Positions 1-4,384 of a stretch of 4,384 nucleotides of DNA are shown here, piece after piece; position 1 is the first letter of the stretch; every line of letters begins with the position of its first letter. The notes beneath the pieces were generated by a model. That model was not told where the DNA came from. It worked only from the letters and a program-made list of their open reading frames with translations, and ran no database searches. A program made the position numbers and the translations under genes. Source of the stretch: a virus (taxonomy: Duplodnaviria > Heunggongvirae > Uroviricota > Caudoviricetes); the IMG/VR virus record IMGVR_UViG_3300022758_000081, positions 1-4,384 of that record; one strand, 5' to 3'.

Positions 1-1096
1 GCCGGGATTCTGGAACTCTCCGTGAAATGCAACATGGGCGATCCGGATAACGATTTCTTCGAGCTTCGTGCAGATGACCTGCGTGATGAGCGTTCTTACC
101 GTCGCCGCATCCAGGCATCCGCCGAAAAAACTGGCGAATAACATTGAGTCAGCAATTGCCAAACAGGCAACCGAAATGGGCTCACTTGTTGTTCACGATA
201 CCCGCGCAATTGGTCCATCTACTGGCCTGTCTGGCTGGGATTTTGTGTCTGATGCAGAGCGCCTGATGTTCTCCCGTGAGCTAAACCGCGATATGGGCAT
301 CAGTTACTTCCTGAACCCTGACGATTACCGCAAAGCAGGCCGCAACCTGGTAGATGGTGACATCTTTGGGCGCGTTCCTGAAGACGCGTATCGCAACGGT
401 ACTATTCAGCGTCAGATTGCTGGCTTTGATGAAATTCTTCGCTCACCGAAACTTCCGGCAGTTACCAAGTCAACCGCTACTGGTGTAACTGTTTCTGGTG
501 CGCAGAAGTTTAAGCCGCAGGCATACACTCTTGATACCGATGGTAACAAAGAGAACGTCGACAACCGTGTTGCAACTGTGACCGTATCCTCCACCACCGG
601 GTTTAAGCGCGGCGACAAAATCAGCTTCACTGGTGTGAAATTCCTGTCTCAGATGGCGAAGAACGTGCTGACTGATGATGCTACTTTCTCAATCACCCGT
701 GTGATCGATGGTACTCACATCGAAATCACGCCGAAGCCGATTGCACTGGATGACGCGTCACTGACAAAAGAAGAGAAGGCTTACGCTAACGTAAACACCT
801 CTCTTGCTGATACCACTCCGGTAAACGTTCTGAACGTGGCAACAACCACCGCTAACGTGTTCTGGGCTGATGACTCAATCCGACTGCTGTCTCAGCCTAT
901 CCCGGTAACCCATGAGCTGTTTGCTGGCATGAAAACGTCTTCCTTCAGCATTCCTGGTATTGGTGTTAACGGCATCTTCGCAACGCAGGGTGATATCAAC
1001 ACTCTGTCTGGTAAGTGCCGTATTGCTGTGTGGTATTCAGCATGTGCTGTACGACCAGAGGCAATTGGTGTTGGTCTGCCTAACCAGACTGCGTGA
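1..1096 (+). CDS. P22-like major capsid (coat) protein, gp5 family; 5'-partial and interrupted by a +1 nt frameshift
   Basis: Frame 1 from the window start translates [38 protein letters not shown], which matches the P22 coat protein as I recall it (..[33 protein letters not shown]). That frame stops at TAA 139-141. Coat homology (KKLANNIE...EMGSLV...[10 protein letters not shown]...GDKISF.GVKFL.QMAKNVL...[12 protein letters not shown]) resumes in frame 2 and runs to TGA 1094-1096. The frame switch maps to the A6 run at 125-130. The ORF-track start at GTG 68 is internal, not the real start. Confidence 0.88.
2..22. repeat. Left copy of a 21-bp perfect inverted repeat (CCGGGATTCTGGAACTCTCCG) shared with the right window terminus
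   Basis: Direct comparison: the reverse complement of 4364-4384 is identical to 2-22, and similarity stops abruptly at the inner boundary. The repeat lies inside the coat ORF (encoding GILELS). Confidence 0.85.
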
Positions 1097-1104
1097 TAAC
1101 CAGA

Positions 1105-1126
1105 GGGAGCTTCGGCTCCCTTTTCT
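1105..1126 (+). terminator. Putative intrinsic (rho-independent) terminator/attenuator downstream of the coat gene
   Basis: Perfect 6-bp GC-rich stem GGGAGC (1105-1110) / GCTCCC (1115-1120) with a TTCG tetraloop (1111-1114), followed by TTTTCT (1121-1126), starting 9 nt after the coat stop codon. Partial terminators after the highly expressed coat gene are a known feature of tailed-phage late operons. Confidence 0.6.
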
Positions 1127-1139
1127 ATTGGAGATACCA

Positions 1140-1727
1140 ATGAGCGTAATGATTTTTCAGGCTGGCGGAGATACCAAAATCTGGGGGCGCAAGCTGAAAA
1201 CGAAAACCGTTGATCCTGATGATGTAGCTGTGCACTTAGCAAATGGCTGGTATAAGCACCCTGACGATGTTCCTGATGATCCTCTTGTTGGTGATCAAAT
1301 TGGGAGTGTTGGCGGAGGTGAAACTTCCCCAGTTGATATGGGCGAAGTGTCCGACGGTTATCACACTTTTAACGAGCTTTACGCTCACCGAGTGCGCCTC
1401 TTCTCATCGCTGATGCATGCTTACGCTGAGCTTTCGTGGTGGTCTCGCAAACACAGTGACGGTGAAGAGTGGGATGGCTGGATCATTGCTGGTATCACCA
1501 CTCCAGAAGGCGAAATCACTTATCACCTACCTGTTGAAGAAATCGAGTTCCTTCCTGAAGGTACTGAGCTTGAGTTCGGGAAAGAGTGGGATGGTCATGA
1601 AGCAAATGATGTTCTTGGACGACTCCTGAGTTTGCGTCCGGCCATTGCAGAGCCAGAAGAAAAACAGCGTAAAAAGCCTGGTCGAAAACCTAAGGCGGCA
1701 GCAGATGAACCTGACAACGAAGGGTGA
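1140..1727 (+). CDS. Hypothetical acidic protein (195 aa) between the coat and gp4 genes; function unknown, possible moron
   Basis: ATG 1140-1142 preceded by GGAG at 1130-1133 (6-nt spacer); open to TGA 1725-1727. The product is visibly Asp/Glu-rich ([53 protein letters not shown]) with a short basic C-terminal tail ([11 protein letters not shown]). Its 3' end overlaps the gp4 start by 23 nt. I do not recognise the family. Confidence 0.6.
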
Positions 1728-2316
1728 TTTAGTTCTTGCGGCATTACGTAAGCTCGGTGTGGCATCAAATGCCACGTTAACCGATGTCGAACCGCAGTCT
1801 ATGGAAGACGGCGTCAACGACCTTGAAATGATGATGGCTGAATGGCTTGGCGGTGATGCGTCACCTGGGATCAACGTTGGCTACATTTTTGCTGATGCAG
1901 ATGTCGCTCCGGATCCGGGCGATGAACACGGTTTATCAAATAACGCTATCAATGCCGTTATTTTCAATCTTGCCTGCCGCATTGCTCCAGATTATGCGCT
2001 GGAAGCGTCTGCAAAACTTATAACCACTGCCAGATACGGGAAAGAGCGACTCGTCAAACTGTCTGCAATGGACAGAGCAAAAGCCGCTAAATGTAAGTCC
2101 GGTTATCCAAACCGTATGCCTGTTGGTAGCGGTAACCAGTTGGCGAAGTGGAACGGTTGGAATTACTTCCACCGAAAGAACCTTGCGATAACGGGAGCGA
2201 ATAATGCCGATTCAGCAACTTCCGCTCATGAAAGGTGTCGGCAAAGACTTCCGAAATGCCGACTATATCGACTATCTACCAGTGAATATGTTGGCTACAC
2301 CCAAAGAAATCCTTAA
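1705..2316 (+). CDS. P22 gp4-like head completion / portal-binding tail accessory factor; 3' end uncertain (possible frameshift)
   Basis: ATG 1705-1707; the N-terminal region [33 protein letters not shown]...[14 protein letters not shown] matches my recollection of P22 gp4. As read, the frame runs 112 nt into gene 10 and ends in an Arg/Cys-rich tail ([15 protein letters not shown]...) that looks like out-of-frame read-through. A TAA at 2202-2204 in the -1 frame would give a TAATG stop-start overlap with gene 10. Confidence 0.72.
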
Positions 2317-3620
2317 CAGCAGCGGATATCTTCGCTCATTCCCGGGCATTGCCAAACGCTCTGATGTAAACGGTGTATCGCGCGGAGTCGAGTACAACAT
2401 GGCGCAGAATGCTGTTTATCGCGTGTGTGGTGGGAAGCTTTACAAAGGCGAAAGCGAAGTCGGTGACGTCGCCGGAAGTGGTCGCGTATCAATGGCGCAT
2501 GGTCGGACATCTCAGGCTGTAGGTGTTAATGGTCAACTGGTCGAGTATCGCTATGATGGCACGGTTAAAACCGTCTCAAACTGGCCTACAGACAGCGGAT
2601 TCACACAGTACGAGTTAGGTTCAGTTCGCGACATTACGCGCTTACGTGGGCGTTATGCGTGGTCAAAAGACGGAACTGATTCATGGTTTATCACTGACCT
2701 TGGAGACGAATCGCACCCTGACCGATACAGTGCACAATATCGTGCCGAGTCTCAGCCTGACGGTATTATCGGCATCGGAACATGGCGAGACTTCATCGTC
2801 TGCTTTGGTTCATCGACGATTGAATATTTCTCCCTGACTGGTGCAACCACAGTTGGTGCTGCTTTGTATGTCGCACAGCCATCGCTGATGGTGCAAAAAG
2901 GCATCGCCGGGACTTACTGCAAACGCCGTTTGCTGATTCCTATGCGTTTATCAGCAATCCGGCAACAGGTGCGCCGTCTGTATACATCATCGGCTCCGGT
3001 CAGGTGTCACCAATTGCCAGCGAGAGCATTGAGAAATCCTCCGCTCCTACACTGCTGATGAACTGGCTGATGGTGTGATGGAATCGCTGCGGTTTGATGC
3101 TCATGAGTTGCTGATTATCCACCTTCCTCGCCATGTTCTCGTGTACGACGCATCTTCAAGCGCCAATGGTCCGCAATGGTGTGTACTGAAAACAGGCTTG
3201 TATGACGATGTGTACCGCGCTATCGACTTCATTTACGAAGGAAATCAGATAACGTGCGGCGATAAGCTGGAATCGGTGACCGGGAAATTGCAGTTCGATA
3301 TCAGCAGTCAGTATGGGCTTCAACAGGAACACCTGCTGTTTACTCCACTGTTCAAAGCGGATAACGCCAGATGCTTCGATCTGGAGGTGGAATCATCCAC
3401 TGGCGTAGCTCAGTACGCCGACCGCCTGTTCCTCTCTGCAACCACTGACGGCATAAATTATGGGCGTGAGCAGATGATTGAGCAGAATGAACCGTTCGTT
3501 TACGACAAACGCGTTTTGTGGAAACGAGTAGGGCGCATCAGGAAAAACATTGGTTTCAAATTGCGCGTTATCACGAAGTCACCTGTCACTCTGTCTGGCT
3601 GCCAGATAAGGATTGAGTAA
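2204..3620 (+). CDS. P22 gp10-like tail accessory factor (head completion / tail hub protein), interrupted by two -1 nt frameshifts
   Basis: ATG 2204-2206 with GGGAG at 2193-2197. [49 protein letters not shown]... closely matches P22 gp10 as I recall it. Homology runs in frame 2 to about 2920, frame 1 from 2923 to 3033 ([38 protein letters not shown]), and frame 0 from 3033 to TAA 3618-3620 ([39 protein letters not shown]...LSGCQIRIE). The ORF-track pieces 2204..3058 and 3075..3620 are fragments of this one gene. The stop overlaps the next ATG as TAATG (3618-3622). Confidence 0.88.
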
Positions 3621-3757
3621 TGGCGGATTCGAATCTCAATGTGCCGGTAATCATTCAGGCTACACGGCTAGACACATCAGTCCTTCCACGCAATATCTTC
3701 TCGCAGTACATCTGCCCGTGGCGGAATTTGCGCGCAGCGAACGATGTGACGCACTGA
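3620..3757 (+). pseudogene. Remnant of the P22 gp26-like tail needle gene: N-terminal ~30 codons only
   Basis: ATG 3620-3622 is translationally coupled to gp10. [28 protein letters not shown] matches the gp26 N-terminus as I recall it ([28 protein letters not shown]). Similarity ends at about codon 29-30 (near 3705-3712). The frame then reads unrelated sequence ([17 protein letters not shown]) to TGA 3755-3757. No frame downstream encodes the expected coiled-coil needle shaft. Confidence 0.7.
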
Positions 3758-4038
3758 ACGGTGGTGTTAGTCAGAATGTATCGCCAGAACGCCAGCCCGA
3801 TTTCCTTGCTGAAGCCGCGAATCTCTGGCAGGTACATGGCGTGGCAATCGAATGTCAGCGGCTGAATCTCCTGATAGTAAACAATGCCGCCGAACTGCCC
3901 GTGCACGTTCACCTCAAAGTAACGGCAATCAGGTTTGTAGTCGTATCCATCACCGTTGTTGCTCCCGGCGATAATGTCAGGGTGATTTCCTACTGCTTCG
4001 ATCAGGTCGATGTTTCGCGTTGGTTTGAACTGAATCAT
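3655..4038 (-). CDS. Hypothetical protein (127 aa), unknown function; convergent with the late operon
   Basis: Start ATG is the complement of 4036-4038, with GGAG about 7 nt upstream on the minus strand. It overlaps the upstream gene's TAA as TAATG. Codon choice in the sampled core (aac ggt gat tac gac aaa cgt gtg) looks like genuine enterobacterial coding sequence, whereas the in-register plus-strand ORF 3613..4095 uses rarer codons (agg, gta). The last ~17 codons are antisense to the gp26 remnant and use rare codons (agg, gga, ata), so the native C-terminus is probably lost or altered. Confidence 0.55.
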
Positions 4039-4384
4039 TACTGCTCCGCGATTATCTTGATGGTTGTGGCAGTAAACGCCGCACCATTTGACTGAATGGT
4101 TAACGTACTGCCATTTGTGGCAAGAAAGCCGTCTTTATCCACGCTGAAGAACGTAGCTAACAGGATGTTGTCGGTTGTTGTCGCCGCATTACGACTGCTG
4201 ACCAGTGTGTCAGGAACAGAGCCGGAAAAGGTTAGCTGCATTGACCTGTTTGCGGTTCCGCTGGGCCACGTCCCGACGATCGACAGCTTGAAGAACAAGG
4301 TTTTGTTCTCGTTGAACACAACCATCTTGTTGTTAACGGTGTCGAAGAATGGTGCCAACGTGCCGGAGAGTTCCAGAATCCCGG
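4038..4384 (-). CDS. Hypothetical protein, C-terminal portion only (the gene continues beyond the right edge of the window); Thr/Ser/Asn-rich, beta-type sequence
   Basis: The minus-strand frame is open from the window edge (..GILELSGTLAPFFDTVNNKMVVFNENK...GSTLTIQSNGAAFTATTIKIIAEQ) to a TAA that is the complement of 4038-4040. The TTG at 4356-4358 reported by the ORF track is not a real start. The composition resembles a fibre, adhesin or receptor-binding domain, but I recognise no family. Its first visible codons lie in the 21-nt terminal inverted repeat. Confidence 0.5.
   Translation of the reverse strand, partial: GILELSGTLAPFFDTVNNKMVVFNENKTLFFKLSIVGTWPSGTANRSMQLTFSGSVPDTLVSSRNAATTTDNILLATFFSVDKDGFLATNGSTLTIQSNGAAFTATTIKIIAEQ
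4364..4384. repeat. Right copy of the 21-bp perfect inverted repeat (reverse complement of 2-22)
   Basis: CGGAGAGTTCCAGAATCCCGG at 4364-4384 is the reverse complement of 2-22. It is read in the same frame (GILELS) by the minus-strand terminal ORF. Confidence 0.85.

What the first reader, a model, noticed from the sequence alone, without database searches (positions are those of the whole stretch)
2136..2316. gp4 probably carries a 1-nt deletion near its 3' end; a TAATG junction with gene 10 exists only in the -1 frame
Read in its starting frame, gp4 extends 112 nt into gene 10 and ends in an Arg/Cys-rich tail that is typical of out-of-frame read-through. In the -1 frame a TAA at 2202-2204 overlaps the gene 10 ATG (2204-2206) as TAATG, the same coupling seen at the gp10/gp26 junction (3618-3622). 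With a one-base correction the product would be 166 aa, which is the length I recall for P22 gp4. The A3 run at 2175-2177 is a candidate site, by analogy with the other indels. My recall of the gp4 C-terminus is not reliable enough to be sure.
Basis: inference. Interest (0 to 1): 0.4.

Follow-up and report, generated by a model that had tools for sequence, protein, structure and literature searches.

The report
Single-base frameshift error in phage gp4
The head-to-tail adaptor gene (gp4) of this P22-like E. coli phage fragment lacks one G that every relative has, which breaks its last 8 codons; this is most likely one of several sequencing or assembly errors on a short, chimeric metagenome contig, so it is ordinary.

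Summary
Relatives read CGAAAGGAACC; the window reads CGAAAGAACC, so one G of a GG pair is missing at 2178, just 3' of the proposed A3 run. Restoring it gives a 166-aa gp4 ending ...[11 protein letters not shown], with TAATG joined to gene 10. That protein is identical to one seen on at least 1000 contigs.

- **The allele is private.** None of 204 E. coli genomes or 84 viral contigs carries it, and the 203-aa product occurs once in 15 billion proteins, on this 4384-nt JGI/IMG contig.
- **Three more private 1-nt indels sit at A-runs.** They are +G124 in the coat gene and A4 to A3 at 2921 and 3034 in gene 10.
- **The contig ends in two inverted chimeric joints.** Its last 21 nt are the reverse complement of positions 2-22.
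- **Selection looks intact.** After correction all genes are open, with dN/dS of 0-0.09 and no amino-acid change in coat or gp4 against one relative.

This favours sequencing or assembly error (about 0.75) over real prophage decay (about 0.2).

One nuance: P22 itself has no TAATG junction. Its gene 4 overlaps gene 10 by 41 nt, in the same relative frame as the window's read-through.

The parts
1705..2316 (+). gp4 (head-to-tail adaptor, P22_Tail-4) as it reads in the record: a 203-aa frameshifted ORF
   Evidence: Pfam PF11650, E=1.4e-58, residues 2-164. This exact product is a singleton in the protein collection, on one JGI/IMG contig of 4384 nt.
1705..2178 (+). Part of gp4 still in its native frame (residues 1-158)
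   Evidence: Identical to the first 158 residues of the common 166-aa gp4, P0031.
2178..2179 (+). Site of the missing base: relatives have AAAGGAA, the window has AAAGAA (one G of a GG pair lost)
   Evidence: Alignments. All 90 loci spanning the site have the gap. All 204 E. coli genomes match at 65/66 at best. The deleted-allele 24-mer is absent from three collections, while the intact 25-mer is present in 84 viral contigs.
2179..2204 (+). Native C-terminal codons of gp4, now in the -1 frame: (G)AA CCT TGC GAT AAC GGG AGC GAA TAA = EPCDNGSE*
   Evidence: frame translation; relatives' proteins; corrected translation.
2179..2316 (+). Out-of-frame read-through tail (45 codons plus stop), overlapping gene 10 by 113 nt
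   Evidence: No fetched relative has such a tail.
2202..2206 (+). TAATG stop/start overlap between native gp4 and gene 10
   Evidence: Read directly from the sequence. Louie, APC_JM3.2 and E. coli prophages are annotated with gp4 ending on the base where gene 10 starts.
2193..2197 (+). GGGAG, a Shine-Dalgarno-like sequence 6 nt upstream of the gene 10 ATG, inside the gp4 3' end
   Evidence: Read directly from the sequence. Its function is inferred.
2204..3620 (+). Gene 10 (tail hub, Phage_stabilise), split by two further 1-nt deletions
   Evidence: Pfam PF11134 matches two fragments. A4 to A3 at 2921-2923 and at 3034-3036. The corrected product is 472 aa.
124..124 (+). Extra G in front of an A6 run, which frameshifts the coat gene (gene 5)
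   Evidence: 56 of 56 loci lack it. The corrected gene 5 is open to its stop at 1094-1096.
3702..3707 (.). Inverted chimeric joint 1 (microhomology CGCAGT): gene 26 codon ~29 is joined to the reverse complement of gene 14
   Evidence: The junction 26-mer is absent from the viral, metagenome and genome collections.
4364..4384 (.). Inverted chimeric joint 2 (microhomology CGGA at 4364-4367): the last 21 nt are the perfect reverse complement of window 2-22
   Evidence: (I1).

Best explanation
The window is a complete 4384-nt JGI/IMG metagenome contig. It carries the coat - WDGH ORF - gp4 - gp10 - gp26 stretch of a P22-like (Lederbergvirus, IME10-type) E. coli phage or prophage.

Its gp4 gene lacks one G (GG to G at 2178). 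Residues 1-158 are therefore read normally. The native last 8 codons (EPCDNGSE, with a stop overlapping the gene 10 ATG as TAATG) fall out of frame, and the ORF runs 113 nt into gene 10.

The most likely cause is a base-calling or assembly error, not a mutation in the phage. It is one of four private single-base length errors, all at or next to A-runs. The contig also ends in two inverted chimeric joints.

Shown: the deletion, its exact position, its uniqueness, and the intact state of the corrected genes. Inferred: that its origin is technical.
For: 1. **Position and restoration.** Alignment to six relatives places a 1-nt gap at 2178. The corrected gp4 is 166 aa and 100% identical to a protein seen on at least 1000 contigs.
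2. **Private allele.** None of the 204 E. coli complete genomes carrying this stretch matches without the gap. The deleted 24-mer has no hit in the genome, viral or metagenome collections, while the intact 25-mer hits 84 viral contigs. The 203-aa product occurs once in about 15 billion proteins, on a contig of 4384 nt.
3. **Three more private 1-nt indels in 3.7 kb.** These are +G before an A6 run, and two A4 to A3 changes. They are absent from 56, 85 and 85 loci that span them. Only 9.3% of positions lie in or next to an A-run of 3 or more, so four out of four has p of about 7e-5.
4. **Relatives are intact.** Among the fetched relatives of this gp4 type, every gp4 that lies whole within its locus and aligns end to end (85 loci) reads in a single frame; one further locus (L073) matched only residues 114-166 and was not examined. 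Only 1 of about 81 gp10 genes is split.
5. **No sign of relaxed selection.** After reverting the four indels there are no stop codons. dN/dS is 0.00-0.09. Against prophage L006 there are 24 synonymous and 0 non-synonymous differences in coat plus gp4. In mutation-accumulation lines of Vibrio, substitutions outnumber indels about 4-11 fold, with or without mismatch repair (PMC5854121). Two real indels in these genes should therefore come with about 5-15 non-synonymous changes; P(0) ranges from about 1e-2 to 3e-7.
6. **Poor contig quality.** There are two inverted joints with 4-6 nt of microhomology, and a perfect 21-nt terminal inverted repeat.
Against: - No reads, coverage figures or sequencing-platform information are available, so the error is not shown directly.
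- Single-base indels at short homopolymers are also the commonest real frameshift mutations.
- Defective prophages with rearrangements do exist.
- The nearest relative is only 97.2% identical. The window's own terminal branch cannot be isolated, so the substitution argument is indirect.
- GG to G and a G inserted before an A-run are less classic homopolymer errors than A4 to A3.
Confidence: 0.75

Rival explanations
1. The deletion is a real, very recent mutation in a defective, decaying P22-like prophage or a non-viable phage genome. On this reading gp4, coat and gp10 are young pseudogenes, and the inversions are real rearrangements.
For: - There are four frame-breaking indels in three essential virion genes, plus rearrangement of genes 26 and 14. 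That is what a dead prophage can look like.
- Real indels also prefer short runs (PMC5854121).
- One other contig among the relatives (L021) has a split gp10, so broken copies do occur in databases.
Against: - There are no nonsense substitutions, and dN/dS is 0-0.09.
- There are no amino-acid differences from relatives in coat or gp4, despite two indels there. This does not fit any known mutation spectrum, because substitutions outnumber indels (P of about 1e-2 to 3e-7).
- All four alleles and both joints are singletons.
- The contig's end is an exact 21-nt reverse complement of its start, which looks like an assembly path and not a genome.
Confidence: 0.2
2. The 203-aa form is a functional natural variant. 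It would be a gp4 with a longer C-terminus that overlaps gene 10, similar to the overlapping arrangement in P22.
For: - P22 gene 4 naturally overlaps gene 10 by 41 nt in the same relative frame.
- The junction architecture varies across the family: a 41-nt overlap, TAATG, TAAATG, or an 8-9 nt gap.
- Only the last 8 residues are changed.
- In the related phage Sf6, the last 10 residues of the gp4 homologue (gp7) show no density in the symmetry-averaged map and are ordered in only 5 of 12 copies (PMC9728967). The frameshift falls in the equivalent terminal stretch.
Against: - No other sequence has this tail.
- All relatives at 95-97% identity keep the G.
- The tail is simply gene 10 read out of frame and is rich in Arg and Cys.
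- The neighbouring coat and gp10 genes are broken in the same manner, so the contig cannot encode a viable virion as written.
- In Sf6 the extreme C-terminus of the homologue contacts the coat protein (PMC9728967), so replacing it is unlikely to be neutral.
Confidence: 0.03
3. Programmed or tolerated -1 ribosomal frameshifting. A slip of tRNA-Lys from AAG (2176-2178) back to AAA (2175-2177) would read GAA CCT ... TAA and produce exactly the wild-type 166-aa protein.
For: The sequence C CGA AAG AAC contains A_AAG, a known shift-prone Lys motif in E. coli (own knowledge, from the dnaX A_AAA_AAG site). The arithmetic of the slip restores EPCDNGSE* exactly.
Against: - The arrangement is not conserved, because every relative has the in-frame gene.
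- There is no full X_XXY_YYZ heptamer, and no stimulator was looked for or seen.
- The other three indels have no such rescue.
- At best this would describe a leaky mutant, not a designed signal.
Confidence: 0.02

Closest known systems
gp4 of IME10-type Lederbergviruses (Enterobacteria phage IME10, Escherichia phages Louie, Dewey and APC_JM3.2; E. coli prophage proteins such as WP_001054834.1)
   Same: - 95-97% DNA identity across coat, gp4 and gp10.
- Same gene order.
- Residues 1-158 are identical to a common allele.
- Same TAATG junction sequence with gene 10.
   Different: The window lacks one G at 2178, so the annotated product is 203 aa instead of 166 aa. It also carries a full WDGH-domain ORF upstream. 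The prophages have this ORF, but IME10 and Louie do not.
Salmonella phage P22 gp4 (head-to-tail adaptor; PDB 8tvu, 4v4k, 5gai)
   Same: - Same Pfam family (PF11650).
- Also 166 aa.
- Same position between coat and gp10.
- E=5e-57 to the PDB chains.
   Different: - P22 gene 4 overlaps gene 10 by 41 nt and ends ...EQNADSTTPHDEGNG.
- It lacks the 22-nt segment that puts the stop on the gene 10 ATG in the E. coli lineage.
- It has internal 2-aa and 4-aa gaps relative to the window.
Sf6 gp7 / HK620 gp4 / CUS-3 head-completion protein
   Same: Homologous adaptor (PDB 7sfs, E=1e-27) that sits next to a gene 10 sharing 92-95% DNA identity with the window's gene 10. In Sf6, C-terminal residues 151-160 act as prongs that contact the coat.
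   Different: The gp4 sequence type is different. DNA similarity starts only at window ~2199. An 8-9 nt gap separates the gene from gene 10.
Homopolymer-length miscalls and inverted chimeras in metagenome assemblies
   Same: - Single-base length changes at or next to A-runs.
- Singleton alleles.
- Inverted joints with 4-6 nt of microhomology.
- A terminal inverted repeat of k-mer size.
   Different: The platform and the reads are unknown. One of the four events (+G124) is an insertion of a different base next to a run, not a change in run length.

Membership tests
P22 gp4 / head-to-tail adaptor (Pfam PF11650 P22_Tail-4) | Significant match to the family profile over most of its length | tested here: met
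   198 bits against a cut-off of 21. Residues 2-164 match profile positions 3-155 of 159 for the raw ORF, and residues 2-160 match for the corrected one. E=5e-57 to the P22 gp4 PDB chains.
P22 gp4 / head-to-tail adaptor (Pfam PF11650 P22_Tail-4) | Located between the coat gene and gene 10 (tail hub) in the late operon | tested here: met
   The order is coat (ends 1096), WDGH ORF, gp4 (1705), gp10 (2204), gp26 (3620). The relatives have the same order.
P22 gp4 / head-to-tail adaptor (Pfam PF11650 P22_Tail-4) | Intact reading frame of about 160-166 aa with the lineage's C-terminus | tested here: not met
   The raw ORF is 203 aa and its last 45 residues are out of frame. The feature is met only after inserting one G.
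Sequencing or assembly artefact (homopolymer-associated indel) | The allele is private to one record while close relatives are invariant at the site | tested here: met
Sequencing or assembly artefact (homopolymer-associated indel) | The indels cluster at mononucleotide runs, and the same record shows other signs of error | tested here: met
   Four of four indels lie at or next to A-runs of 3 or more (p about 7e-5). There are two inverted chimeric joints and a 21-nt terminal inverted repeat.
Sequencing or assembly artefact (homopolymer-associated indel) | The raw reads disagree with the consensus or give it only low support | not testable with these tools
   No reads or coverage data are available, and the look-up of encoding contigs returned no record.
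Prophage pseudogene (real decay) | Relaxed selection: dN/dS rising towards 1, nonsense substitutions, larger deletions or IS insertions | tested here: not met
   dN/dS is 0.00-0.09. There are no non-synonymous differences in coat plus gp4 against L006, and no stop codons after the indels are corrected.
Programmed -1 ribosomal frameshift site | The two-frame arrangement and a slippery heptamer are conserved among relatives | tested here: not met
   All relatives encode gp4 in a single frame. The window has only A_AAG, not a full X_XXY_YYZ heptamer.

The most novel reading that the evidence does not exclude
The deletion could be a real allele that survives because it is mild. It changes only the last 8 residues of gp4, the stretch that in the Sf6 homologue shows no density in the symmetry-averaged map (PMC9728967). 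It also sits on an A_AAG motif where a -1 slip would regenerate the exact wild-type protein. On this reading it would be a snapshot of how the gp4/gp10 junction moves between the TAATG type and the P22-type overlapping architecture.
Probability: 0.03. Interest if true: 0.3.

Novelty: not a real feature. Interest (0 to 1): 0.07.

Why it matters
The main value is for annotation. gp4, the coat gene and gene 10 on this contig should be treated as frameshifted copies of ordinary genes, and the 203-aa "protein" should not be propagated as a new gp4 variant. The last ~680 nt should be treated as chimeric.

There is one small biological point. The gp4/gp10 junction differs between lineages of P22-like phages: a 41-nt overlap, TAATG, TAAATG, or an 8-9 nt gap. 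A read-through frame can therefore mimic homology to P22's own C-terminus. This is a trap for anyone judging frameshifts from P22 alone.

Tried and rejected
- **Natural P22-like overlap.** I first suspected the read-through might be natural, because P22's gp4 tail (NADSTTPHDEGNG) resembles the window's [11 protein letters not shown] rejected this because the window belongs to the E. coli lineage, which has a 22-nt extra segment and a TAATG stop, and because all close relatives carry the extra G.
- **Searching for the source or another carrier.** I searched for the deleted 24-mer and for the junction 26-mer. Neither was found in any collection.
- **The look-up of encoding contigs.** A query with the 203-aa product returned no record, so no sample metadata could be obtained.
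- **Looking for a closer relative.** I checked 84 IMG/VR loci in order to isolate the window's own branch. None was closer than 97.2%.
- **Corrected gp10.** The exact corrected gp10 sequence is not in the protein collection. This says nothing either way, because gp10 is more diverged (dS of about 0.2).
- **Programmed frameshifting.** I considered it and rejected it for lack of conservation.
- **Not run.** I did not run structure prediction or large protein searches, because the DNA alignments already settled the question.

Full report
**What is in the window.** ORF listing and Pfam scans show the late-operon stretch of a P22-like podovirus.
- The 3' three-quarters of the coat gene (gene 5) ends at 1096.
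- An ORF with a WDGH domain (PF25311) lies at 1140-1727.
- gp4 (PF11650) starts at ATG 1705.
- Gene 10 (PF11134) starts at ATG 2204 but is split into two fragments.
- Gene 26 starts at 3620.

The closest DNA relatives are E. coli prophages, at up to 97.2% identity over 2-3707. Next come the Lederbergviruses IME10, Louie, Dewey and APC_JM3.2 at 95-97%. An exact protein look-up shows that the window is a complete JGI/IMG contig of 4384 nt.

**Check of the observation.** All stated coordinates are correct.
- In its own frame gp4 runs from 1705 to TAA 2314-2316, giving 203 aa.
- It overlaps gene 10 by 113 nt including the stop.
- TAA 2202-2204 is in the -1 frame and forms TAATG with the gene 10 ATG.
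- TAATG recurs at 3618-3622.
- AAA is at 2175-2177.
- The tail after residue 158 has 6 Arg and 2 Cys in 45 residues.

**What it is.** Alignment to Louie, IME10, APC_JM3.2 and three prophages places a single 1-nt gap in the window. Relatives read CCGAAAGGAACC and the window reads CCGAAAGAACC.
- One G of a GG pair is missing at window 2178.
- The relatives' gp4 is 166 aa from the homologous ATG and ends ...[14 protein letters not shown]. The stop overlaps the gene 10 ATG as TAATG in Louie, APC_JM3.2 and most prophages, and abuts it as TAAATG in IME10 and PapM-32-1.
- Inserting the G into the window yields a 166-aa protein identical to a database protein seen on at least 1000 contigs.

**A nuance about P22.** P22 gp4 is also 166 aa, but P22 gene 4 overlaps gene 10 by 41 nt.
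- The relative frame is the same as that of the window's read-through. In both cases the gene 4 frame equals the gene 10 frame minus one.
- P22's last residues QNADSTTPHDEGNG therefore partly align with the window's [11 protein letters not shown].
- It does not refute the deletion. The resemblance reflects conserved gene 10 DNA read out of frame.
- The E. coli lineage has 22 extra nucleotides before the ATG, which place the stop on the ATG.
- P22's stop is made by gene 10 codons GGT AAA. These are GGC AAA in the window and in its relatives.
- Sf6, HK620 and CUS-3 have yet another arrangement, with an 8-9 nt gap. Their DNA similarity to the window begins only at about 2199, so a mosaic boundary lies at the gene junction.

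**Real mutation or error?**
- *The allele is private.* All 204 E. coli complete genomes with this stretch match at 65/66 at best. The deleted 24-mer is absent from the genome, viral and metagenome collections, whereas the intact 25-mer occurs in 84 viral contigs. The 203-aa product is a singleton among about 15 billion proteins.
- *The window has three further private 1-nt indels.* They are an extra G at 124 before an A6 run (coat gene), and A4 to A3 at 2921 and at 3034 (gene 10). None of the 56, 85 and 85 loci spanning these sites shares them.
- *All four indels lie in or next to A-runs of 3 or more.* Such positions make up 9.3% of the region, giving p of about 7e-5.
- *Relatives are rarely broken.* Among relatives of this gp4 type, all 85 gp4 genes that align end to end are in one frame. 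One further locus (L073) matched only residues 114-166 and was not examined. One gp10 in about 81 is split.
- *The corrected genes look functional.* After reverting the four indels, coat, gp4 (166 aa) and gp10 (472 aa) are open with no stop codons. dN/dS against three prophages is 0.00-0.09, and there are 24 synonymous and 0 non-synonymous differences in coat plus gp4 against L006.
- *This does not fit a mutational process.* In mutation-accumulation experiments with Vibrio, substitutions outnumber indels about 4-11 fold in both wild-type and mutS lines (PMC5854121). Two real indels in coat plus gp4 should therefore be accompanied by several non-synonymous changes. The probability of seeing none is about 1e-2 to 3e-7, depending on the ratio assumed.

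**The contig is also chimeric at its 3' end.**
- At 3702-3707 (microhomology CGCAGT), gene 26 is joined to the reverse complement of gene 14. As a result, 3702-4367 is the reverse complement of the 5' part of gene 14 plus the 3' knob part of gene 26.
- At 4364-4367 (microhomology CGGA), the sequence jumps to the reverse complement of the contig's own start. Positions 4364-4384 are a perfect 21-nt reverse complement of 2-22.
- A graph traversal with k=21 that runs back into its first k-mer would end in exactly this way. This is an inference.
- The first junction is absent from all three collections.

**Conclusion on origin.** These points together make a technical origin the best explanation (about 0.75). 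A real, very recent set of lesions in a defective prophage remains possible (about 0.2), because no reads can be inspected.

**Consequence if it were real.**
- Residues 1-158 would be unchanged. They cover the Pfam domain and everything that the P22 PDB chains of 146-150 residues align to.
- Only the last 8 residues would be replaced, by a 45-residue basic tail.
- In Sf6, the extreme C-terminus of the homologous adaptor (residues 151-160) is ordered in five of twelve copies, where it contacts the coat protein at the fivefold vertex (PMC9728967). The change might therefore not be neutral.
- Gene 10 keeps its own GGGAG 6 nt upstream of the ATG, but it would lose the stop/start overlap.
- A -1 slip of tRNA-Lys on A_AAG (2175-2178) would restore the wild-type C-terminus exactly. 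This is arithmetic on the sequence and has not been tested.

**Comparison with what is known, and verdict.** The gene is an ordinary member of the P22 gp4 head-to-tail adaptor family. The TAATG junction is the normal arrangement of its lineage. The frameshift is a private defect of this record. Nothing here is new biology, so interest is low. The practical outcome is that the 203-aa product, the split coat and gp10 ORFs, and the last ~680 nt should be flagged as artefacts of the contig.

Noticed in passing
window 124: An extra G in front of an A6 run frameshifts the coat gene (gene 5). Relatives read GCC AAA AAA CTG (A K K L). The allele is private to the window: 56 of 56 loci lack it.
   Followed up: yes
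window 2921-2923 and 3034-3036: Two further private single-base deletions (A4 to A3 in both) split gene 10 into a 284-aa fragment and a 181-aa fragment. With both restored the product is 472 aa, as in the relatives.
   Followed up: yes
window 3702-4367: Inverted segment. After gene 26 codon ~29 the sequence continues as the reverse complement of the 5' 336 nt of gene 14 (DUF2824) and the 3' knob part of gene 26. The joint has CGCAGT microhomology and is not found in any collection.
   Followed up: partly
window 2-22 and 4364-4384: A perfect 21-nt terminal inverted repeat: the contig ends in the reverse complement of its own start, joined through CGGA microhomology. It looks like a k=21 assembly-graph path or a fold-back chimera.
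   Followed up: partly
window 1140-1727: A 195-aa ORF with a WDGH domain (PF25311) lies between the coat gene and gp4 and overlaps the gp4 start by 23 nt. The identical protein occurs on 171 contigs. In IME10, Louie and APC_JM3.2 this region (window ~1129-1647) is replaced by a short ORF and a variable (CAGAGC)n repeat, which their annotations sometimes fuse to gp4 as an N-terminal QSQSQS extension.
   Followed up: partly
window ~2199; L007 (P22) 2789-2829; L008-L010 698-707: The gp4/gp10 junction architecture differs between lineages of P22-like phages: a 41-nt overlap in P22, TAATG or TAAATG in the IME10 type, and an 8-9 nt gap in Sf6, HK620 and CUS-3. A mosaic boundary lies right at the junction, because Sf6-type phages match the window only from 2199 onwards.
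   Followed up: partly
L021 (IMGVR_UViG_2534682161_000018) 1743-3159: One other contig among the roughly 90 relatives has gene 10 split across two frames near codon 330, so broken copies of these genes occur elsewhere in public data.
   Followed up: no
window 1460-1477 and 1577-1594: An 18-nt imperfect direct repeat (GAAGAGTGGGATGG core) inside the WDGH ORF encodes the repeated EEWDG/KEWDG motif of the domain.
   Followed up: no
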